DNA of 64,000 nt from Rhynchopus sp. YZ270_cl-10 (Eukaryota): contig OZ037845.1 of NCBI GenBank assembly GCA_964035575.1, positions 1,364,001-1,428,000 on the forward strand. The letters run 5' to 3'. The notes under the pieces were generated by a model. The model searched no databases. It had not been told where the DNA came from and saw only the letters and a list, made by a program, of their open reading frames with translations. Position 1 is the first letter of the stretch; every line of letters begins with the position of its first letter. Positions 23,368 through 55,957 of this stretch are shown here, in pieces. Made by a program: the position numbers and the translations under genes.

Positions 23368-25753
23368 ATGCCTGATAGTGATGTCGATGAATTCAGAGAC
23401 CAGAAAGTGGCAGAACTGGAGGAGGAGATAAAGAAGTTGGAGGAGAGGATCGACAATATCGACAAGAAGTTTTGCGAAGCATACGACCGCGGTACCCATG
23501 GCTTCGAAAAGAACACCTACACTGGCGACATCTACTACACCGGCCAGGAGCAAGAAGTGCAAAGGGCGTTCGCACAACACGACGAGCTCAAGAATAGGCT
23601 CAAGGTATGACGCCAGATTCTTGTTGTTTCTAGTTATGTACATTTATTTTCACACCCTTACAGAGTAAAATGGAGCTGTTGAATGAGGAGAAGAGGCAGC
23701 AGACGTTGGAGATGAAAAGTCGACGTATTGTATGAACACAATCCCCGCTTTTGTTCTTGTCTTGGCACGTTCCTCGTACGATATGCGAAGTTGTGTTTGT
23801 GAGTTGCCCTTTTGATCTCCCGTTCTCGGTTGCATCTCTGTGTAGTTTTAGGCAAAATTGAATGAACATTTCTTCTACTCACAGGTATCCATCGAAGAGG
23901 TCATAGCTCATGAAGACTTCGTAAAAAATCTGTTGACCCCCCGTGACTTTTGCCGGCTCTCATTTTCCAAATTCCAGCACTCAACTGAGGAATGGAAAGA
24001 GGAGTCACTCAAAATCGTGACTGACGCACTTATCTGCCAAAAAGGCAACACTGACAAACAGGACAGGAAGCTGTTTTTCGTTCCATCAGGGATGGGCGGT
24101 GGCAAGTCACGGGTACTGTCGGAACTGCGCACCATAATTGAACCTGAGCTCCGTGACGATGTGGCCCTAATCGAGCTTCGAGTCAACTTCGAAAATGGTA
24201 CATCTATCCTGCCAAGCGAACATTCTTCAAACAATAGATCCGCTGTTGTTGCGAAAGCACTGTTGGACAGGATAATGTACCACTTGATTGGAGGGGGAGG
24301 GGTCGTGCACTTTGAAGACTTCCGCAAGAAGAGGAAATGGGACTTTTGCCTTACTACCCTCTTGGAGGCCATACAAGTGGAGATGCGAGCTAAACTTAAG
24401 AAGAACGCTGTGATAGTGCTTGTGAGTGTTGATGGAGGTCACCATATGGATCAGAAGGGCGCGAGGTACATCGACAAACGTGTTTATGAGGAGAGACAGG
24501 GGTGGTACGATGACAGTGCGCTTCGAGCTATGTTCGGCGAACTTCGAGGCGCGTTGGTGTCGGTTCAGTATGTGATGTGTGCTGTGTCCTCCACAGTGAC
24601 TCTCCCGATATTGCGCACCATTGAAGGCTCACATACCATATACAAGGCTGTGCTACATCCACCAAGACTGACCCAGTTGCCGGAGGAAATCACGAACAAC
24701 ACCGTAGTAGAGCATGGTCCGTACTTTGTGGATCTGTTTGGAGAACATCCTCGTACAATGGAGTTTCTGCTCGAGGTAGAAAAGGAGAGCATATCAGAGA
24801 TTATGGACTACTGTGCTGAGCAGTTGAGGATACGTTACCACGAGTTTGTCGCGACACTGTCCGCGAATGAGTTGAATGACCTCTTGCGTTACTCCCTCTC
24901 TGCCACGTGCACCAAGACATCACCAGTCGGGGAGAAGATTGTAGACGATGTGATGAGCCTTGGTTTGCTGACACTCTCTGATGCAACACTTCGGATTTCC
25001 CCTGTCCTGCTGTATGCACTCTGGAGGGGTTCAGGCGCAGAGTTTCCGATTCTTAAGGATTGGCAGCCCTTCACCAACGACACAGATGCACGAGGGTTCG
25101 AACGGTTCAACGGCTATGTGCAGTGCGTTCGCTCGAAGGTGTTCAGAGGCGAAGTCCCTCTGACGGAGTTTCTCCACGGAGTAAGGTGGTGTTCGACACC
25201 CTCACAAACAGTGACGCCTGTGCCCTTGGAGTTTGTGCAAGCAAAACACCAGCTGCACACAGCCTCTGAATGGAAGGGACGGGTCATCTCTGATGGACTG
25301 TCCAAAAACTCTGCTGCCAACCCAGGAGAGAGCACCTTAGTTGTAGGCAAAAATAAAACCATTTGTCTGCGGGGCCACTGTGTGATGAATGCTGACCAAG
25401 CCTCCGCAGGTGACCTCTTCTTTCCTCTAACCAAGGGGACTGAGACAGTTCATGTAGTCACACAGGCTAAGCACTCCCAAAGTGACGTTGGGGATGTCAC
25501 TCTTTCGAACAGCCAAGCCAACAAGAACGCCAAAATTGCAGCTTCCAAAGGGGATGTCTACCTTCTTGTGACGAAGAAGCGCTTGCAAAATGATGCACTT
25601 ACAGAGCTGTCAAAAGAAGTGAGCTCAGGTGTGTGCGCCGGTGTTGTCGATGCACACAACTTTGCGTCTTACTTCGGTCCTTTTTCCAGCAACTTCCCTC
25701 CAGCCACTAGAAAGCGTAAGAGGGAAGAGGCTCCAGTGCGCAAGGAGGGATGA
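23368..25753 (+). CDS. Crinkler/RHS (CR)-type protein: coiled-coil header + P-loop NTPase + restriction-endonuclease-like domain; predicted exons 23368-23604, 23664-23729, 23885-25753
   Basis: Walker A-like GMGGGKS, Walker B-like VLVSVDG, HPRTME, C-terminal N...A.AGD...QAKH; two phase-0 GTATGA..CAG introns join the upstream ORF in frame. Confidence 0.75.
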
Positions 25754-30699: not shown

Positions 30700-31790
30700 C
30701 TCGGCCATATTTTTGGTTATAACCCCCGAAAAAGGGCCCCCGGAACCCCAATCTTTCCAAATTTCCACCACATCCCCACCCAAACACCGCAAAAACACGA
30801 CAGAAAATCCTCTTAAAAAACACACTTTTTTCAAAAAGGTAATCAGGCAGGTTCCATAATGACCTTTTTGAAAAAAGTGTGTTTTTAAAGACGATTTTCT
30901 GTCGTGTTTTTGCGGTGTTTGGGTGGGGATGTGGTGGAAATTTGGAACTATCTGGGCTCCCAGGGTCCTTTTTCGGGGGTTTTTAGCCATTTCTTGACCC
31001 CTATATGGGTCAAACAGCATGCTGGAGTGCTGCCGGAGCGCTGCCATACCATTGCCATACCATTTTTTTTTGATGTAAAAACACCAAAAAAACACTTCCA
31101 AAAGTGTCAAATATGTCCAAAACAGGTTGGAATGGACTCACAGGCCACTTTTGGGGTATATTTGTGCCAAAGGAGGCTTTGTGATGTCAAAAAATAGCCG
31201 TTTTTTTGGTTTTTTCTTGAAAAATTGCTATCGTCAGACAGGCTCCATAATGACCTTTTTGAAAAATGTGTGTTTTTTAAGACGACTTTCTGTCGTGTTT
31301 TTGCGGTGTTTGGGTGGGGATGTGGTGGAAATTTGGAACTATCTGGGTTCCCAGGGTCCTTTTTCGGGGGTTTTTTGGCCATTTCTTGACCCCTATATGG
31401 GTCAAACAGCATGCTGGAATGCTGCCGGAGCGCGGTCAGGGTATTGCCAGGGTATTTTTTTTGACGTAAAAACACCAAAAAAACACTTCCAAAAGTGTCA
31501 AATATGTCCAAAACAGGTTGGAATGGACTCACGGGCCACTTTTGGGGTATATTTGTGCCAAAGGAGGTTTTGTGATGTCAAAAAATAACCGTTTTTTTGG
31601 GTTTTTCTTGAAAAATCGCTATTTTGCCCAACATGGCCAAAACGTGAAAAAAGCCGTTTTTTCACTATTTTTTTCCATTTTTTTGTATTCTGGGGTGGCT
31701 TCTGGGTCGTTTTTCGGCCCACAGGCCCCCTGTGACCCACTCTGAGGGTGTTTTTCACCTGCAGTTGCCTTGGAAATGACCAGAAGTTTA
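30700..31790. mobile_element. Rearranged foldback element related to 42690-43886, with a ~390-bp tandem duplication
   Basis: Inversion centre AAAAAACACACTTTTTTCAAAAAGG..CCTTTTTGAAAAAAGTGTG at ~30815-30885; duplication ~30856-31230 / ~31243-31620. Confidence 0.7.
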
Positions 31791-32388
31791 ATAATGAGTT
31801 TTTGGTACGGTCATTTTACTCACAGTCGGACCCCCTACCCCCCCCCCCCCCCCCCCTTTTTTCTCAGAATTTTCTTTGACAAAGGTGACTAAGCACCTGA
31901 GGCTTAGGATCATCTGGTCAACTTTCTTTAGTTTCAGTGTTAGCGACATATCTTCAAGCATAGTAATTCTCTACCTCTTCCCAAAAAAAATGAAGAAAAG
32001 GTACTTTTGGATGAGTCCAGAAAGAGCGAGATAAAGAACCCCCTATTTGCCAAACCCTTCTTATTCGCTCTTTTTTCCAAAAAGAGCCGTAAATAACGTT
32101 AAAGAAACAATGAATGAAACGATGAAACGATTTAAAAAAAAGCCAGAATTTTTCCCCTTTTCAGTTCGACAAGAAACTTGGCGACCAAATAATATTGGCG
32201 GATTTTGGGGGTTTTTCTTGCAATTGGCGACTTTTTTGCTAATATTACTTCCTACTGTGGTGTGGCTGAAAGGGGGTGCTATTGTTGTGCTACTTTCTGC
32301 TATTTTCTGCTATTTTGGGGTCGGTCACACCATACTGTATTTCAATTTTCCTCTGTCACTTCTCATCAACAGTCTTTACACAAAAATA

Positions 32389-33528
32389 ATGCAAGAGGCC
32401 GCCCCTACACAGAACACTCCAAACAGGCTTCGGAGGGCGGAATGGGTGTTGTCACAACGGAGTGATGAGGTGCTTCTTATACTTGAGAAGACCTGCGACG
32501 TGCATAACATACAAGCCGTGAAGCGCACTGCTGAGTCTATGGGGGTGCAAAACCTTTGGGTCATTCGGCCTTCCTACCATAAGAACGGCACAGCAGAGTC
32601 AGAGTCTGCCACGTCCCCTGCGCCGGCACCTACAGACGACACACCACCCTTCAACATTATCAACACATTCCGCGCATTTCTCAAACAGAATCACCCTGAG
32701 AGCATGCCTGCGTACAATGCAGAAAAGGTCTCATCCAATGGAGGTGGCGATATCTGGCGTGCAACGTGCACTGTTAATGGGGTGTGCTATGTTGGGGGTG
32801 CAGATTTTTCGAAAAAGGTTGCGATGCGGAAGGCGGCGGAGACAGCGTTGAAGGTGTTGGACTCTTCTTATGTTCCTATCGCTGCGACGGTTGTCGTTGC
32901 AGGGCAAAGCGAGAGACAAAAGGAGGAGCACATCACGAACAGCACAGCGCTGAGCAGAGGGGCAGATCGGTGGCTCAGTGTCAAAGAGTTTGACACAACC
33001 GGCTCCTGCATTGCCGCTGCAAAGGAGCTAGGTTACACCCTCTGGTCCACGTCGCTCTGTGAACACGCTGTTCCATTAGAGGTTGATACACCGTATGAGA
33101 TGCTCCCGGGGAAGCTTGCGTTGGTGATCGGCTCCGAGGCTGCAGGGGTGAGCAAGGAGATGATAGCTGCAAGCGAACAGTGTGTCTACCTCCCCATGTA
33201 CGGATTCATGGAGTCGCTCAACCTCAGCGTCGCTGCAGCCCTGCTCTTACAACGAATTTTTGACGTAAAGGTGCGTGGTGCCAACCGTGGAACTCTCTCA
33301 ACAGAGACAAAATGTGCACTAAGAAAGCGATGGTGGTCTCAACTAGCAAGCACCGACACAGCAGCGAAAAAACTTGCCCCATTCGAAAGAGAATTCCTAT
33401 CAGGGCGTTGCCCCCCTCTAAGCGACAGCAGAGAAAGCAGGAATGATACAAAATCGGTTTCAAAACGGTTTGAACGAGCCAACCCTGGGCACGTTGAAGG
33501 GAATATGAATTCGGTAGGTGGAAAGTAA
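32389..33528 (+). CDS. SpoU/TrmH-family RNA 2'-O-methyltransferase with an inserted dsRNA-binding domain
   Basis: ILEKTCDVHNIQAVKRTAESMG, LVIGSEAAGVS, LPMYGFMESLNLSVAAA; dsRBD-like ..WRATCTVNG...G..FSKKVAMRKAAETALKVL. Start at ATG 32389 because the upstream ORF extension overlaps a repeat. Confidence 0.88.
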   Translation: MQEAAPTQNTPNRLRRAEWVLSQRSDEVLLILEKTCDVHNIQAVKRTAESMGVQNLWVIRPSYHKNGTAESESATSPAPAPTDDTPPFNIINTFRAFLKQNHPESMPAYNAEKVSSNGGGDIWRATCTVNGVCYVGGADFSKKVAMRKAAETALKVLDSSYVPIAATVVVAGQSERQKEEHITNSTALSRGADRWLSVKEFDTTGSCIAAAKELGYTLWSTSLCEHAVPLEVDTPYEMLPGKLALVIGSEAAGVSKEMIAASEQCVYLPMYGFMESLNLSVAAALLLQRIFDVKVRGANRGTLSTETKCALRKRWWSQLASTDTAAKKLAPFEREFLSGRCPPLSDSRESRNDTKSVSKRFERANPGHVEGNMNSVGGK

Positions 33529-41700: not shown

Positions 41701-42689
41701 TGTCCGCTGATGTACGGTGAGGTGTGATGCATTTTTTTTTTTTTAAAAACTTCTCTTTAGTTATTTAGATGACTAATCACAGAGAGGTTTAGGTTCATTT
41801 TATGAACTTCTCTTTAGTTTCGCCTGCTACACATTTTTGTCGATGACTCAAAATTAAACCCCCCCCCCCTCATTGTTTTAGTTTGGAATTTCCACTCCTT
41901 TTCACCCCCCTTTTAAAAATAGCTGATGCGATTTGCAAGGATTTTTGAAGATTTGAGCTCCCCCCCTTTTGTTGTCTACAACACTAATAAAAAACAGAGC
42001 ACAAAGCATTTTCAAACTACCCCTTTTTTTGTTGTTTTTGTATGACTATGCACAGTGCTGTATTTTCATATATTTCAAGCTTTCCTTTTTTGTTCTTTTT
42101 TGTTCTTTTTTGTTCTCTTTTTTTTTACAACAAAACATAATCCAGACGTGTGTACCCCTTTTTCTTTTTTTCTGTGCTGTATTTCATTGGTCCCCCCCTC
42201 CCCCAGCGAAGTCCACAGATTATGGGAGCTGGCATATATACCTCCAGCCGGTTCCCTCTCCCGAACACTCTAGGCATACACTCGATGCGAGTCGCATGCG
42301 AGAATCATTATCGCACTATCGTACACCATTCTTGCACCATTATCGCATGCGATAATCATTATCGCTCACGTAGAAGGATTTTTGGTCGTGCGAGAGTGAG
42401 CGATAATTGTGCGATAATTTTTCGCCAGACCAGAATTGTGCGAGGATGCGAGAATGCGACTCTCATCGGGGTGTATGTCTAGGGGAGGGTTCGATAACCC
42501 CACGGAGTGTCAGTGCTCTGCGTCCCAGAGGCGTTTTGCACTGTCAACTTTACTCTACTTTTTTTTTTGTGTGAAAAATCGTCTTATGTCTAGATGTATG
42601 TGGGGAAGAAAAAAAAACTTTCCCACACACAGCACCATGATACTCTTTACCTTTCCCCATATCCATCCCCCCGATTCCCCCCCCCCCTA

Positions 42690-43886
42690 GGGCCAGCGAC
42701 TCCGCCGTTTTAACGTGGGAGCCAATGTCGCTTTAACCTGTTACGGTACTTCTGGCCATTTCCAGGCCACCTCTGGTCGGAAAACCCCCCAGAACTGGGT
42801 CAGAAACACCCTGTGACCCGAAAATTCATGATTAGGGCGACCCAGAATATGCTAAAATGCGAAAAAATAGTGAAAAAGTGGCTTTTTGACGGTTTTGGCC
42901 ATGTTGGGTAAAATGGCCATTTTTTGAGAAAAAAACCAAAAAAACAGCAAAATTTCGACATCATGACGGCTGCTTGGGCACAAAACTACCCCAGGGATGT
43001 CCCGTGAGTCCATTCCGACCTGTTTTGGACACTTTCGGTACTTTTTTTGGCCGTTTTTTGGTGTTTTTGTGGTAAAAAACGTCCTATGATAGTCCTATAC
43101 TAATCGCAAGACGCCATTTGTCCCACAGTCTGGGCCAATATGGGGGCCCACAAATGGGTAAAAACCCCCGAAAAAGCACTCCAGGAACCCAGATAGTTCC
43201 AAATATCCACCAGACACCCACCCAAACACCGCAGAAACACCACAGAAAATCGTCTTGAAAAACACACTTTTTTCAAAAAGGTCATTATGGAGCCTGTCTG
43301 ACAACCTTTTTGAAAAAAGTGTGTTTTTTAAGACAACTTTCTGTGGTGTTTCTGCGGTGTTTGGGTGGGTGTCTGGTGGATATTTGGAACTATCTGGGTT
43401 CCTGGAGTGCTTTTTCGGGGGTTTTTACCCATTTGTGGGCCCCCATATTGGCCCAGACTGTGGGACAAATGGCGTCTTGCGATTAGTATAGGACTATCAT
43501 AGGACGTTTTTTACCACAAAAACACCAAAAAACGGCCAAAAAAAGTACCGAAAGTGTCCAAAACAGGTCGGAATGGACTCACGGGACATCCCTGGGGTAG
43601 TTTTGTGCCCAAGCAGCCGTCATGATGTCGAAATTTTGCTGTTTTTTTGGTTTTTTTCTCAAAAAATGGCCATTTTACCCAACATGGCCAAAACCGTCAA
43701 AAAGCCACTTTTTCACTATTTTTTCGCATTTTAGCATATTCTGGGTCGCCCTAATCATGAATTTTCGGGTCACAGGGTGTTTCTGACCCAGTTCTGGGGG
43801 GTTTTCCGACCAGAGGTGGCTTGGAAATGGCCAGAAATGCCGTAACAGGTTAAAGCGACACAATTTTACTAGGGAGTCGCTCCCCC
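42690..43886. mobile_element. TA-flanked foldback element (~570-bp internal inverted arms); inverted copy at 47675-48871
   Basis: Self-complementary around ~43290; termini GGGCCAGCGACTCC / GGAGTCGCTCCCCC. Confidence 0.85.
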
Positions 43887-44087
43887 TACCCCCCCCCTAG
43901 GCATACATAGCGTGCGAACGGCTCATTCGCATCATTCGCATCCTGTTCGCATTGGGTATTCGCATCCTGTTCGCATTGGCCAATGCGAACAGGATGCGAA
44001 TGACATACGAATAACATTTATTATGGGGTGGCGACAGGCAAGTTCTCATTTTTTGGTCAATTTCCGCACTACACAGTACACACAATA

Positions 44088-44646
44088 CACAGTATACACA
44101 GTATACACAGTATACACAGTATACACAGTATACACAGTATACACAGTATACACAGTATACACAGTATACACAGTATACACAGTATACACAGTATACACAG
44201 TATACACAGTATACACAGTATACACAGTATACACAGTATACACAGTATACACAGTATACACAGTATACACAGTATACACAGTATACACAGTATACACAGT
44301 ATACACAGTATACACAGTATACACAGTATACACAGTATACACAGTATACACAGTATACACAGTATACACAGTATACACAGTATACACAGTATACACAGTA
44401 TACACAGTATACACAGTATACACAGTATACACAGTATACACAGTATACACAGTATACACAGTATACACAGTATACACAGTATACACAGTATACACAGTAT
44501 ACACAGTATACACAGTATACACAGTATACACAGTATACACAGTATACACAGTATACACAGTATACACAGTATACACAGTACACACAGAATACACAGTATA
44601 CACAGTATACACAGTATACACAGTGTACACAGTATACACAGTATAC
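44088..44646. repeat. (TACACAGTA)n nonamer satellite, ~62 units
   Basis: Tandem repeat. Confidence 0.98.
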
Positions 44647-45048
44647 CATAGCTGATAAGCTAATAAAGCCTAATAGGATATTAGCCTATTTAAGCCTTAT
44701 AGAATAGGCTAATGAAACTGGAATAGGCTAATATTTTATTAGCCTATTCCAGTCCTTCCCAGCTACCACTGGTGGTACGGTGGTAGCTGGCTTAACCCGT
44801 TAAACAAATCCGAAAAATCCAAAATTTAAGGCCAACTCCGTTACAGACACAACACAACTTATTTCTCTTGTGTTTTTCACTGATGAGCGTGAGTGAGGTG
44901 TATGTTACAGCACCGACTGCAGCCTACGTCTAAGATGGCATATAATAGGCTATTAGCCCAATATTAGCCTATTATAAGACATACTGTGGGTGTTATAACG
45001 TTATCGATAACGTTATAACAAGTGTTATTTTGGAATAACGTTATTCAG

Positions 45049-46214
45049 CAGTACAGTACAGTACAGTACAGTACAGTACAGTACAGTACAGTACAGTACA
45101 GTACAGTACAGTACAGTACAGTACAGTACAGTACAGTACAGTACAGTACAGTACAGTACAGTACAGTACAGTACAGTACAGTACAGTACAGTACAGTACA
45201 GTACAGTACAGTACAGTACAGTACAGTACAGTACAGTACAGTACAGTACAGTACAGTACAGTACAGTACAGTACAGTACAGTACAGTACAGTACAGTACA
45301 GTACAGTACAGTACAGTACAGTACAGTACAGTACAGTACAGTACAGTACAGTACAGTACAGTACAGTACAGTACAGTACAGTACAGTACAGTACAGTACA
45401 GTACAGTACAGTACAGTACAGTACAGTACAGTACAGTACAGTACAGTACAGTACAGTACAGTACAGTACAGTACAGTACAGTACAGTACAGTACAGTACA
45501 GTACAGTACAGTACAGTACAGTACAGTACAGTACAGTACAGTACAGTACAGTACAGTACAGTACAGTACAGTACAGTACAGTACAGTACAGTACAGTACA
45601 GTACAGTACAGTACAGTACAGTACAGTACAGTACAGTACAGTACAGTACAGTACAGTACAGTACAGTACAGTACAGTACAGTACAGTACAGTACAGTACA
45701 GTACAGTACAGTACAGTACAGTACAGTACAGTACAGTACAGTACAGTACAGTACAGTACAGTACAGTACAGTACAGTACAGTACAGTACAGTACAGTACA
45801 GTACAGTACAGTACAGTACAGTACAGTACAGTACAGTACAGTACAGTACAGTACAGTACAGTACAGTACAGTACAGTACAGTACAGTACAGTACAGTACA
45901 GTACAGTACAGTACAGTACAGTACAGTACAGTACAGTACAGTACAGTACAGTACAGTACAGTACAGTACAGTACAGTACAGTACAGTACAGTACAGTACA
46001 GTACAGTACAGTACAGTACAGTACAGTACAGTACAGTACAGTACAGTACAGTACAGTACAGTACAGTACAGTACAGTACAGTACAGTACAGTACAGTACA
46101 GTACAGTACAGTACAGTACAGTACAGTACAGTACAGTACAGTACAGTACAGTACAGTACAGTACAGTACAGTACAGTACAGTACAGTACAGTACAGTACA
46201 GTACAGTACAGTAC
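45049..46214. repeat. (CAGTA)n pentamer satellite, ~233 units
   Basis: Perfect tandem repeat. Confidence 0.98.
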
Positions 46215-46546
46215 CCCTGCTAACGACCCACCCAGAGTGGGACAAAAAAAGCTCATCCCAAAATATGCCGATCACAAAAAAATCACAAAAAACCCCGATA
46301 ATCCAACAATCACACACCCACAGAATTCACACACTACTATAACATTCGCACTACGTTCGCATCATTCGCACTATGTTCGCACTGTGTTCGCATCGTTCGC
46401 ATCATTCGCACATGCGAATATAGTGCGAATATAGTGCGAATGATGCGAATGATGCGAACGACAATGCGAATGAATGCGAACAGGATGCGAATGCATTCGC
46501 ACATGCGAATATATGCGAATGGTCATTCGCACGCTATGTATGCCTA

Positions 46547-47661
46547 GGGGGAGCCACGTATAAGGAAATCCTTAAGGATTTGCTGTCCGAAACCCATTTT
46601 TTTGAAATTTGGGTGAAGAAACCCACTAAAACGGGCGTACCTGGCCGCAAATCGCCCTGGGGATCACCCATATATCCCAATAAACCACCTGACGACCTTC
46701 ACAGAGCATTTCTTGTCTCAAAAAAATCGATTTTTTGTGAAAAAACACCCCAAAATTGCGTAACGCTTGCGTAACGCTTAGTGACCAAAATTTAGCACTT
46801 GCCAAGAAATTTCTCCAATCAGACAAAAATCCTTCTAAACACCCGAAAAACACCTCAGTCCACATCCGCTGGGGTCCCAGGGTGGAAATGTATAGTTTTT
46901 GCAGCTTTTAGGGGTCCTGGGAGGGTCCCAGGCGTATTCATGAGGGACGGAACCGCTTATAATGCCCGAAATTACCTCTTTTTTAGGGTGCTTTTTCACC
47001 TTAAAAATTCAAAAAAAAGTGCTCAGACAATCCACAAAATACCCCATTTTGGGACAAGTGGGACAAAAGTGGGACACGGGGTTATTTTGGGCAAAATAGC
47101 CCAAAAAGTGATCGCAAATATGATTCCCCACCCCGCAGGGGGCCTGGCGAGTAGTTCCGAGGGGGTTTTTACACTTCTGTGATTGTCTGAGCACTTTTTT
47201 TTGAATTTTTAAGGTGAAAAAGCACCCTAAAAAAGAGGTAATTTCGGGCATTATAAGCGGTTCCGTCCCTCATGAATACGCCTGGGACCCTCCCAGGACC
47301 CCTAAAAGCTGCAAAAACTATACATTTCCACCCTGGGACCCCAGCGGATGTGGACTGAGGTGTTGGTGTTTAGAAGGATTTTTGTCTGATTGGAGAAATT
47401 TCTTGGCAAGTGCTAAATTTTGGTCACTAAGCGTTACGCAAGCGTTACGCAATTTTGGGGTGTTTTTTCACAAAAAATCGATTTTTTTGAGACAAGAAAT
47501 GCTCTGTGAAGGTCGTCAGGTGGTTTATTGGGATATATGGGTGATCCCCAGGGCGATTTGCGGCCAGGTACGCCCGTTTTAGTGGGTTTCTTCACCCAAA
47601 TTTCAAAAAAATGGGTTTCGGACAGCAAATCCTTAAGGATTTCCTTATACGTGGCTCCCCC
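46547..47661. mobile_element. TA-flanked foldback element (~490-bp inverted arms), termini GGGGGAGCCACGTATAAGG
   Basis: Arms ~46547-47035 and ~47178-47661 are reverse complements. Confidence 0.88.
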
Positions 47662-50470
47662 TAGGGGGGGGGTAGGGGGAGCGACTCCCTAGTAAAATTG
47701 TGTCGCTTTAACCTGTTACGGCATTTCTGGCCATTTCCAAGCCACCTCTGGTCGGAAAACCCCCCAGAACTGGGTCAGAAACACCCTGTGACCCGAAAAT
47801 TCATGATTAGGGCGACCCAGAATATGCTAAAATGCGAAAAAATAGTGAAAAAGTGGCTTTTTGACGGTTTTGGCCATGTTGGGTAAAATGGCCATTTTTT
47901 GAGAAAAAAACCAAAAAAACAGCAAAATTTCGACATCATGACGGCTGCTTGGGCACAAAACTACCCCAGGGATGTCCCGTGAGTCCATTCCGACCTGTTT
48001 TGGACACTTTCGGTACTTTTTTTGGCCGTTTTTTGGTGTTTTTGTGGTAAAAAACGTCCTATGATAGTCCTATACTAATCGCAAGACGCCATTTGTCCCA
48101 CAGTCTGGGCCAATATGGGGGCCCACAAATGGGTAAAAACCCCCGAAAAAGCACTCCAGGAACCCAGATAGTTCCAAATATCCACCAGACACCCACCCAA
48201 ACACCGCAGAAACACCACAGAAAGTTGTCTTAAAAAACACACTTTTTTCAAAAAGGTTGTCAGACAGGCTCCATAATGACCTTTTTGAAAAAAGTGTGTT
48301 TTTCAAGACGATTTTCTGTGGTGTTTCTGCGGTGTTTGGGTGGGTGTCTGGTGGATATTTGGAACTATCTGGGTTCCTGGAGTGCTTTTTCGGGGGTTTT
48401 TACCCATTTGTGGGCCCCCATATTGGCCCAGACTGTGGGACAAATGGCGTCTTGCGATTAGTATAGGACTATCATAGGACGTTTTTTACCACAAAAACAC
48501 CAAAAAACGGCCAAAAAAAGTACCGAAAGTGTCCAAAACAGGTCGGAATGGACTCACGGGACATCCCTGGGGTAGTTTTGTGCCCAAGCAGCCGTCATGA
48601 TGTCGAAATTTTGCTGTTTTTTTGGTTTTTTTCTCAAAAAATGGCCATTTTACCCAACATGGCCAAAACCGTCAAAAAGCCACTTTTTCACTATTTTTTC
48701 GCATTTTAGCATATTCTGGGTCGCCCTAATCATGAATTTTCGGGTCACAGGGTGTTTCTGACCCAGTTCTGGGGGGTTTTCCGACCAGAGGTGGCCTGGA
48801 AATGGCCAGAAGTACCGTAACAGGTTAAAGCGACATTGGCTCCCACGTTAAAACGGCGGAGTCGCTGGCCCTAGGGGGGGGGGGAATCGGGGGGATGGAT
48901 ATGGGGAAAGGTAAAGAGTATCATGGTGCTGTGTGTGGGAAAGTTTTTTTTTCTTCCCCACATACATCTAGACATAAGACGATTTTTCACACAAAAAAAA
49001 AAGTAGAGTAAAGTTGACAGTGCAAAACGCCTCTGGGACGCAGAGCACTGACACTCCGTGGGGTTATCGAACCCTCCCCTAGACATACACCCCGATGAGA
49101 GTCGCATTCTCGCATCCTCGCACAATTCTGGTCTGGCGAAAAATTATCGCACAATTATCGCTCACTCTCGCACGACCAAAAATCCTTCTACGTGAGCGAT
49201 AATGATTATCGCATGCGATAATGGTGCAAGAATGGTGTACGATAGTGCGATAATGATTCTCGCATGCGACTCGCATCGAGTGTATGCCTAGAGTGTTCGG
49301 GAGAGGGAACCGGCTGGAGGTATATATGCCAGCTCCCATAATCTGTGGACTTCGCTGGGGGAGGGGGGGACCAATGAAATACAGCACAGAAAAAAAGAAA
49401 AAGGGGTACACACGTCTGGATTATGTTTTGTTGTAAAAAAAAAGAGAACAAAAAAGAACAAAACTAAACATAACATTATACCAACTGATCTGTCTTTACT
49501 ACTCTACTACTATGTCTTTTTTCGTTGACCGCAGCCATTTAGGCTCTTTGCCTATGACGCACATGATAATGGATGAGGGGGAGGATTCAAAAGGAAAAAG
49601 CGTAAAGACAGATCTATCGTTGGTTTTAAATATGTTTAGTTTCCAATCACACTTCGTGTGTGCAAAAACTAAACATAACATTATACCAACTGATCTGTCT
49701 TTACTACTCTACTACTATGTCTTTTTTCGTTGACCGCAGCATGACCCAAAGGGACCGCGCAGCGGAATAGTAGCATAGTACGGAGTTAAACGGGGAAGAA
49801 AAAAGGGGGGAAACGGTAGGAAAAGAAAGAAAAACGGTAAACACAGCACCGAGCAAGCCAGCACTCACAGAAAGAAATCGTGTTGATATCCATTCGCCGT
49901 CTCGAAGACAGTGGATAAGGGGGGGCCGTAAGCGCAAGGAGTGCCAAGCATAGTCAGCACACCCCATACAGGGGGACACATTTCAAACAAAAATAAAAGC
50001 GCATGGTGCACGAAGCAGAGTCAGTACCATCAAACGGGAGAGCAAAAAATATGAAAACGGTGTCAGTGATAAGCAGGGACTACAAAAACCAGCACGGGCG
50101 GACCCACCACCGAAACGACAATCTGGACCCACCACCGAAACGACAATCTTCCGCGAGAGTCGCCTCTCCAAACTACTGGGCAGCGGACGTTCGTGAAGCA
50201 GGGAGGCGTGGTACTAAAACATGTCCTCAACCGCGTATAGCGGGGCTCGTGGCCATCAGAACAACCCGCCCTTGGCAGGAAAATACCATGTACACAACGC
50301 AAGAAAACAGAACGCGCACGCACAATACGAGGACAAGCTCCTCAAAGAAAAACCAGTCGTCCCGCGACAGGCCCACACAGACCACCATTGAACCCTAGGT
50401 GATGAAAAAATAAAACAAACACTAAACACTCCTACGACGCACTGTGAGCGGGAAGGCAAACAATAAAATG

Positions 50471-51625
50471 CATGGGGCACTAAGCATAGTCAGCACGCAC
50501 CAGCGATGAAATGTTGATGAACAAGAAACACCCCTTCGTCGCTCCTCGAGCAGGAAGGTAAAATAAAATGCATGGGGCACCAAGCAGAGTCAGCACGCAC
50601 CAGCGATAAAGTGTTGATGAACATTGACACCCCTTCAGGGGAAAAAGTAAAAAGCACAAGGGGCACCAAGCAGAGTCAGCACGCTCCAAGCGAGAAAATG
50701 ATAACAATAACAAAACCCTTCGTCGCTCCGTGAGCGGGAAGGTAAAATAAAATGCATGGGGCACCAAGCAGAGTCAGCACGCACCAGCGATAAAGTGTTG
50801 ATGAACAATAAATACCCCTTCAGGGGAAAAGGTAAAAAGTACATGGGGCACTAAGCAGAGTCAGTACGCACCAGCGATAAAAGGTTGATGAACAATAAAC
50901 ACCCCTTCGTCGCTCCACGAGCAGGAAGGTAAAATAAAATGCATGGGGCACCAAGCAGAGTCAGCACGCACCAGCGATAAAGTGTTGATGAACAATAAAT
51001 ACCCCTTCAGGGGAAAAGGTAAAAAGTACATGGGGCACTAAGCAGAGTCAGTACGCACCAGCGATAAAATGTTGATGAACAATAAACACCCCTTCGTCGC
51101 TCCACGAGCAGGAAGGCAAAATAAAATACATGGGGCACCAAGCAGAGTCAGCACGCACCAGCGATAAAGTGTTGATGAACAATAAATACCCCTTCAGGGG
51201 AAAAGGTAAAAAGTACATGGGGCACTAAGCAGAGTCAGTACGCACCAGCGATAAAAGGTTGATGAACAATAAACACCCCTTCGTCGCTCCACGAGCAGGA
51301 AGGTAAAATAAAATGCATGGGGCACCAAGCAGAGTCAGCACGCACCAGCGATAAAGTGTAGATGAACATTGACACCCCTTCAGGGGAAAAAGTAAAAAGC
51401 ACAAGGGGCACCAAGCAGAGTCAGCACGCTCCAAGCGAGAAAATGATAACAATAACAAAACCCTTCGTCGCTCCGTGAGCGGGAAGGTAAAATAAAATGC
51501 ATGGGGCACCAAGCAGAGTCAGCACGCACCAGCGATAAAATGTTGATGAACAATAAACATCCCTTCGTCGCCCCATGGGCAAAATATAAAAACTCATGGG
51601 GCACTGAGCAAAGCCAGCACGCGCC
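50471..51625 (-). repeat. Array of 13 units of 86-100 bp (alternating ~100/87 dimer) in the 3' region of the retroelement
   Basis: Unit starts 50471, 50571, 50657, 50755, 50842, 50942, 51029, 51129, 51216, 51316, 51402, 51500, 51595. Confidence 0.92.
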
Positions 51626-51641
51626 ATAACAAACAAAACAA

Positions 51642-53546
51642 TTATTGACAAAACATTGCCTCCACACTCTCGTATACTTTGAGCACAGGGGGGAGTGACA
51701 CCATCGTGGGGGCCACCGTCCCGCGAGTGAACTCGTCAGCACGTTGACTTAAAGTGTCCACCCACGTGGCGGATACACACATGTTTGCTGCCTTTGCAGT
51801 GTCAAAAATCGCACACAGCAGCTCGTTAGCTAGATAATTCTTGCTGTGACCTTTGTTTATAGCTGCCACTGCAGCGGCGTTGTCGACCTGAAGAGACACT
51901 TCATGATTAGGGTGGTTTGCGGCCGCTAACCGAACGGCTAGCCAAGCAGCGTATAGCTCTTTCAGGTATATGTGATGTTTCTCAGGATCTGGAAACACAC
52001 CCTGAACAACAGGTTCGAAAAACTCAGATTCTATTAAAGCAGCCCACTCGCGGTCCGAGGCATCTGACCAAGTCACCACGGTGGGTCTCTCTGGTTGGTC
52101 TACAATCCAGTCATTACAACGCATCACAGACACTATGCCTGTGAATTCTGAGATAACAGATGGGGGGATAAAAAGTTGAACATCCCACTTTTGTGGGTCA
52201 ATAGCAAGTAAAGACGCGGTACGCCGCAGAAAAGAAAGAGAATCACGGTAATAACACAAATTCCGTTTGGTACAATACAAAAACCACACGAAACCTCCCA
52301 ATACTTTGTAGAAATCCCGGGCAGTGCAGTCGTCTTTCAACACCGCACTGAGAACGGGGGATTCCACACACTTCTCAATCCAGTCAGGGGCAGCACGGTA
52401 CCGTCTTGGGGAACTCGCCAAGTCAAACTCCAGGCCCAAAGCGCAAAAGTTCGTCCTAGGCACTCCCTCTCCCTCGTCGTCATTCAGCTCGGCACCGACA
52501 CGTTCAGCGCGTCGGAGGAACGAAGAGTAGCGCCTCTCTGCCTCCTGCAAGGTATTGCCCACGACAAAGAAGTTGTCCACCCAAGGTATCCCTTCATCCT
52601 CTGGCAGCAACACCATAGCCGAGCGGTGCGCGATGCACGGCGCCCAACTCCACCCCATGCACAGCACGTTGAGCTTTGCCCTCACAAAGGGTCCGCGTGC
52701 ACCTGCCAGGTTCACTCCAAAGAAATCGTCCACACCATCTGCCAGCGGAAACTGGTAAAACCAGCTCCGCCCATCAGCTTGCACCACGTACGCACTGTCC
52801 AGAAACCTCTTCACTACCTTATGTATGGAAGGTAGATACATGGGAGGGGGGTCACGCATCAGGCGGTTCAGCTTCCGACCGTCGCAGACCAGCCTCAGTC
52901 CCCGCACCTTCTTCGGCACGGTGAAGGCGGGAAGTATCACCTTCTGCTCGCCAGACCGAGACATCACACCCCACTTCTGCAGCTTCCCCCAGTGGCGCAG
53001 CATATGCCTGGAAGTCCCTCTCTTTACCGGGACTGACGACTCCAGGACTTTTCGGCCCTCCTCGGTGAGGGCTGCCGTGAAGGCTTCGGGGGACCGGATC
53101 ACGTCGAGGACTCCTGTCAGAAGACCTTGAGAGTCCATCGCCGTTAGGGCATCCAGGTCCAACCTAGCACGGGAGATCTCCGCCAGCTCCCCCTCAGCGC
53201 GTTCGGCGGGAGCAGACACAAAGCGGCGATCCAAAACAATCGTTGCCTCCCCGTACAGGAGCACAACATCAGGCCCATCGTCCTCCTCCGTCCTCCTCGG
53301 GAGCGCGGGCGGTGGTGGAGGCGCGTACATCTTCGGCGGCGCTCCGAATGTCGGGAAAGCAGGACGCAATGGTGGTGCACGCGCTCTTCTCCAGCGTCGT
53401 ACCCACACACAGGGCCTCAAGCCACACTGCAGCGGAGGGTGCGTCAGCGAGGGCCCAACTGCTCCTGCGACGCACTGCACGACGGCAACCCGTGCTCCTC
53501 CTCGTCCCCTGCCACCCCGCGCACGAGTCCTACTCCTCCGTGCCAT
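51642..53546 (-). CDS. DIRS-class reverse transcriptase-RNase H, 634 aa, with Arg/Gly-rich N-terminus
   Basis: FTVPKK..LRLVCD, DGRSWFYQ, LCMGWSWAP, WVDN, ALGLEFD; RNaseH SDAS, HIYLKELYA, VDN..AV..INKG.S, WV......ADEFTR. Confidence 0.92.
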   Translation of the reverse strand: MARRSRTRARGGRGRGGARVAVVQCVAGAVGPSLTHPPLQCGLRPCVWVRRWRRARAPPLRPAFPTFGAPPKMYAPPPPPALPRRTEEDDGPDVVLLYGEATIVLDRRFVSAPAERAEGELAEISRARLDLDALTAMDSQGLLTGVLDVIRSPEAFTAALTEEGRKVLESSVPVKRGTSRHMLRHWGKLQKWGVMSRSGEQKVILPAFTVPKKVRGLRLVCDGRKLNRLMRDPPPMYLPSIHKVVKRFLDSAYVVQADGRSWFYQFPLADGVDDFFGVNLAGARGPFVRAKLNVLCMGWSWAPCIAHRSAMVLLPEDEGIPWVDNFFVVGNTLQEAERRYSSFLRRAERVGAELNDDEGEGVPRTNFCALGLEFDLASSPRRYRAAPDWIEKCVESPVLSAVLKDDCTARDFYKVLGGFVWFLYCTKRNLCYYRDSLSFLRRTASLLAIDPQKWDVQLFIPPSVISEFTGIVSVMRCNDWIVDQPERPTVVTWSDASDREWAALIESEFFEPVVQGVFPDPEKHHIYLKELYAAWLAVRLAAANHPNHEVSLQVDNAAAVAAINKGHSKNYLANELLCAIFDTAKAANMCVSATWVDTLSQRADEFTRGTVAPTMVSLPPVLKVYESVEAMFCQ

Positions 53547-55957
53547 ATTTATTCGGTAACGAAGTTAAAAAATTTTTCGTTGACCGCAGCCATTTAGGCT
53601 CTTTGCCTATGACGCACATGATAATGGATGAGGGGGAGGATTCAAAAGGAAAAAGCGTAAAGACAGATCTATCGTTGGTTTTAAATATGTTTAGTTTCCA
53701 ATCACACTTCGTGTGTGCAAAAAAAGAACAAAAAAGGAAAGCTTGAAATATATGAAAATACAGCACTGTGCATAGTCATACAAAAACAACAAAAAAAGGG
53801 GTAGTTTGAAAATGCTTTGTGCTCTGTTTTTTATTAGTGTTGTAGACAACAAAAGGGGGGGAGCTCAAATCTTCAAAAATCCTTGCAAATCGCATCAGCT
53901 ATTTTTAAAAGGGGGGTGAAAAGGAGTGGAAATTCCAAACTAAAACAATGAGGGGGGGGGGTTTAATTTTGAGTCATCGGCAAATTGTTCGTTTGAGAGA
54001 TTGTTACCGTGTTTTAACAAATAGTGGAGCACGCTCTAGGGTGGCTACACTAATACAACCAAGTTTTCAATTAAAAAAAATAGTTTAAAAAAATGGTGGG
54101 TCAGTTGCTTATGACGCAAGTGAAAATAGTGGAGTTAGCAATACGTGTTGCCAACTGTTTTCCATCAATTTTTTTTCAAAAAAAGCTAAAAAAAAAAGTG
54201 TAGGGTGTTTGCGGTATAGCTACAAAATATGGGGGGGAACCAAATCGATTGTTTCTTCCCCCAACTCTCCTTGTCTGTGTATCTGTCGATGCATTGCGGG
54301 ACCGCTCCCTCTTCCATTTAAAAAAGAGCCCAAGGGGTTGAAACACGGTACCATAAAGATCTTAAGGAAGATATTTGTGTTTTTTCAGGATTCCTGGAAA
54401 TCCTGACACTTTGTGTTTTTTTTCTTCAGGATTTTTCAAGATCCTGACAATTTGTGTTTTTTTTTTTTTTTACCAGGGGCAGGGTTTCCGCCAGGATTTG
54501 GGGTTTCAGGAATTGGGGGGGACCATCAAAAAGACCCCCCAAAAAAATTTTTCCTCCCCGCAAAAGCGGTCGTCGCGCGCTTCGCGCGCGCCTCCCTGCA
54601 GGCCACAGAGTGGAGAGGCGAAGGGTGCACCAGGTTTGATAGCAGCCATGTCAAGCTTCACAGCTGTGTTGTCTGGTAGAGGTGGTTCGTTTGGAGGTCG
54701 GGGGTGGAAGTTAACAAGGTAAGGGGTCTTGTGAGAGTGGAGGGTGATGGTGTTTGCTTTTTCTATTGTATGGTGTTACAGTCATTACAGTGCTGCAGTG
54801 GGAACATGTAATAACTACCCGTCGCTTGCACCGAAGCCTCCTTAGAAAAAGGGGCAATGCACGGAAGTATCGATGGAAGTATATCAATATCACATAGCTA
54901 GCAACACAGCGCCGCAGGCGCACGGTACGCTACTTTTACCCTTTTTAAAAAAGATTGCACCACCCTCTTTTCTTCCACTTCTTCTGGCACAGCGAGCCAA
55001 ATGCTCTGCACGGTGGGGTCGCATGACCACGGGGGGTCATCTACAACCTCCAAAACCCCATTTTTCTTGGGGGGGACCATGGTCCCCCCCAAACCCCTGT
55101 AAAAATCCGGATTTTTCTGGGAAAAATATTGGGGGGGTCCATGGTCCCCCCCCGGTCCCCCTTGGCGGAAACCCTGAGGGGGCTTCTCTATGTTGTAGGC
55201 ATACAGAGGTACAGATTTTACAGACCGGGGCCGCAACTGGCTGGGATGTCACGAAACTGACAAAAAAAGTGGTTTTCGACCTTTTTTTTTGGCCTGCTGT
55301 ACAGTATAGTCAGGGTAGTAGCTTGAAAGGTGTACTTTTCAAATGTTGCTGGTTTAGAAAAAATTTTTCCCCGGTTGAAAGCGGTCGTCGCGCGCTTCGC
55401 GCGCGACTCCCTGACAACCACTAAGTGGAGAGGCAAAGGGTAAATTTTACGAGACAACAAAGAAAATGGAATATAATCCTGTGTTTACGGCGCTTGGTCT
55501 TGCACCTTCCACTAACCGTACGAAGTCAATACGTCTTCCAGAAGCAGGGGCCGTTGCAACGGTGGGTCATTTTGAAAAAATGGTCAACTTTTTGCATCTT
55601 TGATCAAGTTGCATTTGCGGCTGCAAAATGCAAGGGGATTCCCGAAGACATTGCAAACTCTATTTTTTGCGGAGCAAAAAATTAATATAAAGTGGCGCCG
55701 CAGGCGAAAAAAAAATTAGGGCATAGTGCAAAACATGCAGCTTTTTACACCACAGAGTCACTTAATGAACCCTTTTTAGGGGTTCGCTTACGTGTGAGGC
55801 TTTCTTCTGTGAGTGGGAAAGTGGTGCGGGGGAGGCGAAAAACTGAATCCCGAATCCCACTTTTTTTTTTATTTTTCCCCAAACCAGTAAACCAGCTCGT
55901 TCTGGTTTTGAAACCAGCAAAAGTACCCAAGCTATTTCCCTGGTATAGTATAGTACC

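What the first reader, a model, noticed from the sequence alone, without database searches (positions are those of the whole stretch)
49464..53718. Recently inserted RT-only, recombinase-less split-repeat retroelement: candidate helper-dependent or bipartite YR retrotransposon system
Seen: perfect A1...B1-A2-B2 repeats; one intact 634-aa RT-RNaseH ORF starting only ~26 nt after A1; the remaining ~1.9 kb has no credible ORF and is mostly a repeat array. Known: PAT/Ngaro/VIPER-type elements need Gag, RT-RH and a tyrosine recombinase, and non-autonomous derivatives usually lose RT. Inference: this element keeps RT, has an RGG-rich N-terminus that could replace nucleocapsid function, and borrows the YR in trans, possibly from a partner element. 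The catalytic motif is WVDN rather than YxDD.
Basis: partly seen in the sequence, partly recalled or inferred. Interest (0 to 1): 0.85.

Follow-up and report, generated by a model that had tools for sequence, protein, structure and literature searches.

The report
Recombinase-less retrotransposon that keeps its polymerase
This is a freshly inserted copy of a multi-copy jumping element, in what is likely a marine diplonemid protist, that has kept an intact reverse transcriptase but has no capsid or recombinase gene, so it likely copies itself and borrows the insertion enzyme from another element, the reverse of the usual freeloader design.

Summary
Observation confirmed. The 4255-nt minus-strand element has exact A1...B1-A2-B2 repeats, one 634-aa RT-RNase H ORF 26 nt after A1, and no Gag or tyrosine recombinase (YR) in any frame. 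It is not a one-off deletion. Its protein cluster sits on 24 contigs. A sister subfamily (85% identical, 15 contigs) has the same start and also runs straight into the same A repeat. Between the two, dN/dS is about 0.07. An empty paralogous site in the window shows a conservative insertion (T6 + T5 -> T7 + T4, no target duplication), as expected for YR integration of a circle. The nearest relatives (about 60% identical) carry a YR overlapping the RT start, in the Gag-YR-RT order of VIPER/TATE. A separate YR-less clade occurs in JGI metagenome contigs, so the loss has recurred. WVDN is clade-wide, not a defect. The B-T5-A junction folds into a long hairpin (z -7.6). The helper was not identified, so a bipartite system is unproven. 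Verdict: new semi-autonomous variant of VIPER/TATE-like retrotransposons.

The parts
53573..53718 (-). A1, 5' split direct repeat; holds a pyrimidine tract followed by AG (possible trans-splice acceptor, inferred)
   Evidence: exact match to A2
53719..53725 (-). 5' junction T7 run
   Evidence: compared with the T6 at the empty site
51642..53546 (-). single ORF, 634-aa RT-RNase H (P0001)
53364..53546 (-). Arg/Gly-rich 61-aa N-terminus shared with the sister subfamily; no YR trace in shifted frames (weak test)
52572..52583 (-). WVDN catalytic motif, clade-wide
51717..52091 (-). RNase H domain (approximate; conserved SDAS, KEL, VDN, ADE motifs)
50465..51630 (-). tandem array of 86-100-nt subunits (187-nt period), non-coding; no Rfam match; folding unremarkable (z -0.74)
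49741..50464 (-). unique 3' non-coding region with two degenerate array cores and a 25-nt tandem pair
49669..49740 (-). B1
49664..49668 (-). T5 core between B1 and A2 (internal copy of the predicted circle junction)
49602..49704 (-). long imperfect hairpin formed by the B end and the A start, spanning the T5 core
   Evidence: z -7.6 as DNA; z -3.9 for the 277-nt RNA
49518..49663 (-). A2
49464..49535 (-). B2 (first 18 nt shared with the end of A2)
49460..49463 (-). 3' junction T4 run
41860..43901 (+). empty inverted paralog of the host repeat; pre-insertion T6 at 42096-42101
   Evidence: exact identity of 1804 nt (left flank) and 242 nt (right flank)

Best explanation
It is a young copy of a multi-copy split-direct-repeat retrotransposon family that encodes only an RT-RNase H, likely descends from a Gag-YR-RT (VIPER/TATE-like) ancestor of diplonemids, likely makes its own cDNA, and likely borrows the tyrosine recombinase (and probably Gag) from an autonomous element in the same genome. 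Steps: (1) transcription from A1 through B2 (inferred). (2) Its own RT copies the RNA, using B1-A2 to regenerate both ends and give a circle joined at B-T5-A (inferred from the repeat layout and the DIRS-order model). (3) The B end and A start are imperfect inverted repeats, so the junction is a symmetric recombination site that can also fold as a hairpin (folding computed, role inferred). (4) A helper YR crosses the T5 core with a genomic T-run, with no duplication or loss (outcome shown at this site; enzyme inferred). The RT stays under purifying selection, likely because it acts preferentially on its own RNA (selection estimated, reason inferred).
For: Empty site T6 versus filled T7 + T4 = T6 + T5. 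In run X7, 7 contigs leave A1 into unlike flanks whose consensus begins with an A-run on the + strand. The protein cluster has 7 intact variants differing by <=3 aa on 24 contigs; the sister cluster has 6 members on 15 contigs. In runs X1 and X2 one unbranched contig runs from the ORF into A, and the sister subfamily joins the same A repeat across 116 versus 107 nt. Between subfamilies dN is about 0.063 and dS about 0.92 over 480 codons; 32 of the 40 displayed differences are at third positions. The family nests (support 98) among relatives whose RT N-termini encode a YR in the +1 frame: P0256 49.8, P0239 46.0 bits against shuffles <=15; P0008 and P0062 score 69.2 and 62.7. The P0008 overlap is confirmed by protein P0250. 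D. papillatum homologs have YR before RT. VIPER/TATE have this repeat order and no TSD (PMC12278014, PMC6681497). DIRS-1 proteins can act in trans (PMC7192593).
Against: No helper YR was tied to this assembly: two YR searches (18 and 10 hits) gave none on a contig whose length matches those of the two subfamilies, though only each hit's longest contig is shown. The whole genome was not available, so copy structure rests on collapsed short-read contigs; 83 loose ends and 248 pieces were not displayed. DIRS-1 RT works in trans, so cis-preference is not a given. dN/dS is an approximation from difference counts and would predate the loss if the two subfamilies lost Gag/YR separately. The test for YR remnants in the 61-aa N-terminus is weak: the YR-bearing control P0239 scored 10.7, no better than shuffles.
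Confidence: 0.62

Rival explanations
1. Obligate two-part system: this RT-only element and a Gag/YR-only partner with shared termini complement each other, and neither moves alone.
For: It would explain strong selection on RT despite trans-acting RT in DIRS-1. A third family shares the 3' part of A and then diverges (X1 record 5; depth 110 in X7). No autonomous element was tied to this assembly.
Against: No RT-less YR element was seen. All YR-bearing relatives with readable context carry RT as well (4 of 4 JGI loci; overlap test). The content of the third family is unknown.
Confidence: 0.13
2. YR-independent mobility: the RT-only element inserts through host repair or recombination, or by priming at T-runs, with no element-encoded recombinase.
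For: No YR in cis. YR-less forms arose at least twice and diversified. Targets are T-runs.
Against: The exact T-count conservation with no duplication and the symmetric junction fit site-specific recombination. In one metagenome set the YR-less L002 has at its terminus the same 9-mer found in the non-coding part of YR-bearing L004/L006/L007 (51 of 20000 shuffles; post hoc).
Confidence: 0.12
3. Ordinary recent deletion derivatives: each subfamily lost Gag-YR lately, is mobilised wholly in trans, and its RT is intact only because it is young.
For: Gag-less Ngaro variants exist in Cafeteria (PMC8547959). Copies within a subfamily are nearly identical.
Against: Both subfamilies share the same start Met and an N-terminus that has diverged to 75% identity, with dS about 0.9 between them. 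No full-length branch was seen in X1 or X2 contigs. The 3' array is not present in the autonomous relatives read here.
Confidence: 0.13

Closest known systems
VIPER / TATE (VIPER-like group, DIRS order) of kinetoplastids
   Same: A1...B1-A2-B2 repeats, no TSD, RT/RH; the relatives of this element have the Gag-YR-RT order with overlapped YR and RT ORFs (PMC6681497, PMC12278014)
   Different: No Gag, no YR; likely diplonemid host; placement with VIPER or TATE by RT phylogeny not tested
SIRE (T. cruzi) and TOC1 (Chlamydomonas), non-autonomous YR-type elements
   Same: Depend, or are proposed to depend, on helper proteins; SIRE derives from VIPER repeats
   Different: SIRE is a short A2-B2 piece without ORFs; this element keeps a full RT-RH under selection. 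That TOC1 is gene-less is recalled and from scan notes, not read here.
Cafeteria burkhardae Ngaro type 2b
   Same: Split direct repeats; multi-copy 5' deletion variants lacking ORF1 (PMC8547959)
   Different: The deletion described covers ORF1 only; Ngaro order is Gag-RT-YR, so YR lies outside it
Autonomous diplonemid WVDN-clade elements (D. papillatum DIPPA_12838 and DIPPA_33724; P0008, P0239, P0256)
   Same: RT-RH 49-62% identical, same WVDN/YVDN motif and PAFP start motif
   Different: They encode a YR upstream of or overlapping the RT

Membership tests
VIPER-like (VIPER/TATE) | Split direct repeats A1...B1-A2-B2 | tested here: met
VIPER-like (VIPER/TATE) | No target-site duplication | tested here: met
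   empty site; the apparent 14-nt flank match is a pre-existing tandem motif
VIPER-like (VIPER/TATE) | RT/RH ORF | tested here: met
VIPER-like (VIPER/TATE) | Gag-like ORF and YR ORF upstream of RT | tested here: not met
   met by its relatives. The element is therefore a derivative, not a canonical member.
VIPER-like (VIPER/TATE) | RT/RH groups with T. cruzi VIPER or Leishmania TATE | not tested
   no named VIPER/TATE protein among fetched hits; the paper's alignment files were unreadable
Ngaro | Order Gag-RT/RH-YR | tested here: not met
   relatives have YR before RT; nothing YR-like 3' of RT here
PAT-like | Methyltransferase domain after RH | tested here: not met
   ORF ends about 25 aa after RH; no MT in Pfam scans of the element or of 32 homologs
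DIRS1-like | Inverted terminal repeats plus ICR instead of split direct repeats | tested here: not met
   split direct repeats, although the B end and A start are imperfectly complementary
SIRE/TOC1-type non-autonomous element | No functional RT | tested here: not met
   intact ORF, dN/dS about 0.07; enzyme activity itself not testable here

The most novel reading that the evidence does not exclude
A bipartite retrotransposon: RT-only elements and a Gag/YR-only partner sharing the A/B ends replicate only together, the capsid-less RT binding its own RNA through a basic N-terminus and the YR acting on a folded B-T5-A hairpin; this split has evolved more than once in Euglenozoa.
Probability: 0.13. 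Interest if true: 0.87.

Novelty: new variant of a known kind. Interest (0 to 1): 0.62.

Why it matters
Non-autonomous YR retroelements described in the papers read here lose RT (SIRE) or only Gag (Cafeteria Ngaro 2b). A family that drops both Gag and recombinase but keeps RT under strong selection implies that RT must act in cis, or that labour is split between elements. The same loss appears independently in another clade. The element also offers a young, compact system with a known empty site and a defined junction hairpin, for the largely untested steps of split-repeat retrotransposition (circle formation, YR substrate), and a large natural clade of xxDN reverse transcriptases.

Tried and rejected
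Whole-genome catalogue of A/B copies: not possible, no genome held. A 14-nt TSD: rejected, the motif is tandem at the empty site. WVDN as a sign of decay: rejected, W[VIL]DN in 171 of 217 rows, redundant members included, 19 rows with no motif captured and a few miscaptured by the pattern. Ribozyme or known RNA in the array: Rfam gave 2 sub-threshold chance hits; one unit folds no better than shuffles. Gag fragments in the YR-less JGI loci: a by-eye resemblance was not supported by the Gag profile. Related loci in viral contigs and genome contigs: 0 of 35 and 0 of 36 candidates. Helper YR: not tied to this assembly; these word-limited searches are not evidence of absence. No RNA holder listed. 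Sharing of the 3' region and B repeat among subfamilies was not examined on reads. The formal one-clade test for all YR-less rows did not finish, and the tree is the quick version. Hairpins at relatives' non-coding regions: best-window z from -1.6 to -5.4 in 7 loci against -2.5 and -3.2 in controls, so a long junction hairpin is not shown to be general. Literature: searches listed no paper whose title, abstract start or read passages describe an RT-retaining, YR-less split-repeat family; one search found 0 papers for the xxDN motifs. Repbase and subscription journals were not searchable.

Full report
Anatomy. The element spans 49464-53718 and reads on the minus strand. A (151-nt exact match including the T-run) and B (76-nt exact match) are arranged A1...B1-T5-A2-B2, with A2 and B2 overlapping by 18 nt. 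One 634-aa ORF starts 26 nt after A1. Pfam sees RT only weakly (E 0.028). The AlphaFold model of residues 73-634 (mean pLDDT 88) matches retroviral and caulimoviral RTs in PDB (best E 3.8e-19) and hepadnaviral P among viral models (TM 0.51). The 1901 nt after the ORF hold about 1.17 kb of 86-100-nt tandem subunits and a unique stretch. Profiles built from the clade's own YR and Gag-like proteins find nothing in the element's six frames.

Host. No genome was held. Named homologs come from Diplonema papillatum, D. ambulator, Rhynchopus euleeides and Flectonema neradi, so a diplonemid host is inferred, not shown.

Insertion. The flanks have an empty inverted paralog in the window, identical over 1804 nt on one side and 242 nt on the other. 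The empty site has T6. The filled site has T7 before A1 and T4 after B2, and the internal B1-A2 joint has T5. So 7 + 4 = 6 + 5: nothing was duplicated or lost, which is what crossing a T5-joined circle into a T6 target gives. In run X7, 7 contigs leave A1 into unlike flanks whose consensus begins with an A-run on the + strand. The B end and A start are imperfect inverted repeats; the junction folds into a long hairpin with z -7.6 as DNA against 200 shuffles. That folded single-stranded DNA can be a YR substrate (integron attC, CTX phage) is recalled, from no call. DIRS-1 cDNA is mostly single-stranded (PMC7192593, passages).

A family, not an accident. The protein cluster has 7 intact variants, at most 3 aa apart, on 24 contigs; a sister cluster (85% identical) has 6 members on 15 contigs, one of them truncated. 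These counts may span more than one assembly. Of 15 listed runs, 7 in 4 studies hold 74-81% of the element's sampled words; one may be the source sample. I laid 4 runs on 51630-53900. In X1 and X2 a single contig runs unbranched from the ORF into A; the sister subfamily reaches the same A repeat across 116 instead of 107 nt. Its protein starts at the same Met with a 75% identical basic N-terminus. Over 480 codons there are 250 nucleotide and 58 amino-acid differences, giving roughly dN 0.063, dS 0.92, ratio 0.07 (an approximation from counts). A third family shares only the 3' part of A; its content is unknown. The call hid 197 difference rows, 83 loose ends and 248 pieces, so a rare full-length form is not excluded.

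Ancestry. D. papillatum proteins P0013, P0031 and P0091 have YR ahead of RT. For protein-only relatives I scored whether the RT N-terminus could encode a YR in a shifted frame. Controls with known overlap (L006, L007, left out of the profile) scored 62-64 bits and shuffles at most 15; P0008, P0055, P0062, P0066 and P0027 scored 58-69, P0239 46 and P0256 50. Protein P0250 begins with P0008's N-terminal sequence and continues as a YR, confirming the overlap. The two window subfamilies nest among these relatives. The first tree used 145 of 217 rows, after dropping near-duplicates and rows covering under 430 profile positions; the second used 26 chosen rows and is a quick tree. So the family lost Gag and YR from a Gag-YR-RT ancestor, the order described for VIPER and TATE (PMC6681497: abstract, Results parts 1-2 of 3, passages; PMC12278014: passages). 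Its placement relative to named VIPER/TATE RTs was not tested; the paper's alignment supplements could not be read, and 12 of 13 text supplements held none of the motifs searched.

Recurrence. Of 10 JGI loci, 4 carry Gag-like, YR and RT ORFs (L001, L004, L006, L007). Four with terminal duplications have one long ORF and no YR in six frames (L002 and L003, the same element; L005; L009). L008 lacks YR but is not closed, and L010 is a distant weak hit. L002, L005, P0033 and P0112 form their own clade (support 100), separated from the window family by two branches of support 100; L009 was not in the tree but resembles them in DNA. These contigs are collapsed assemblies, so their completeness is likely, not proven. 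L002's terminus falls on a 9-mer also present in L004, L006 and L007 (post hoc).

Motif. W[VIL]DN occurs in 171 of 217 rows, including YR-bearing elements. PMC12440569 (passages) notes that TATE and VIPER often differ at conserved RT residues. That an Asn at this position can be compatible with polymerisation (Ty1 mutant, viral GDN motifs) is recalled, from no call.

What stays open. No helper YR was tied to this assembly. DIRS-1 RT acts in trans, so retention of RT needs an explanation: cis-preference (preferred) or a partner without RT. The element's length is close to that of autonomous relatives (4.4-kb contigs), so the array could be size filler; this is inference only. The role of the basic N-terminus is untested.

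Prior art. SIRE is an ORF-less VIPER derivative; TOC1 is called a non-autonomous DIRS element (PMC9940879, passage); Cafeteria Ngaro 2b lacks ORF1 (PMC8547959, passages). The D. papillatum genome paper mentions TATE-like ORFs and defers curation (PMC10161547, passages). PMC4157794 and PMC12477816 (passages) added classification context only. Eight searches showed no description of an RT-retaining YR-less family; Repbase and subscription journals were out of reach. Verdict: real feature, new variant of a known kind, interest 0.62.

Noticed in passing
window 47701-48835 and 42726-43860: The host repeat that received the insertion contains a 1.1-kb self-inverted (foldback-like) segment, 97.8% palindromic; older relatives lie at about 30700-31800.
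   Followed up: partly
window 43901-47660: The two inverted 100%-identical copies flank long (TACACAGTA)n and (CAGTA)n microsatellites and a second inverted pair (46543-47039 / 47175-47665).
   Followed up: no
L002:1-3575, L005:1-3868, L009:1-3644: A separate clade of YR-less, single-ORF RT elements with long basic N-terminal extensions, found in part in the same samples as Gag-YR-RT elements; a second candidate helper-dependent system.
   Followed up: partly
L002:350-385, L005:40-85, L009:1100-1165: Pyrimidine tract plus AG just before the ORF start, resembling trans-splice acceptors; suggests euglenozoan hosts (pattern recalled).
   Followed up: no
L004:2250-2290, L006:85-125, L007:4270-4310: A small hairpin conserved across three autonomous relatives in the non-coding region; candidate circle-junction site.
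   Followed up: partly
protein set: The xxDN RT clade is large (671 clusters at E<=1e-30); several other long N-termini lack a YR signal (P0129, P0132, P0163, P0190, P0195), either further losses or YRs too diverged for the test.
   Followed up: no
window 23852-25753: 633-aa ORF with a P-loop-like GMGGGKS motif and no Pfam match at E<=0.001.
   Followed up: no
window 32035-33528: SpoU methylase with an inserted dsRNA-binding motif.
   Followed up: no
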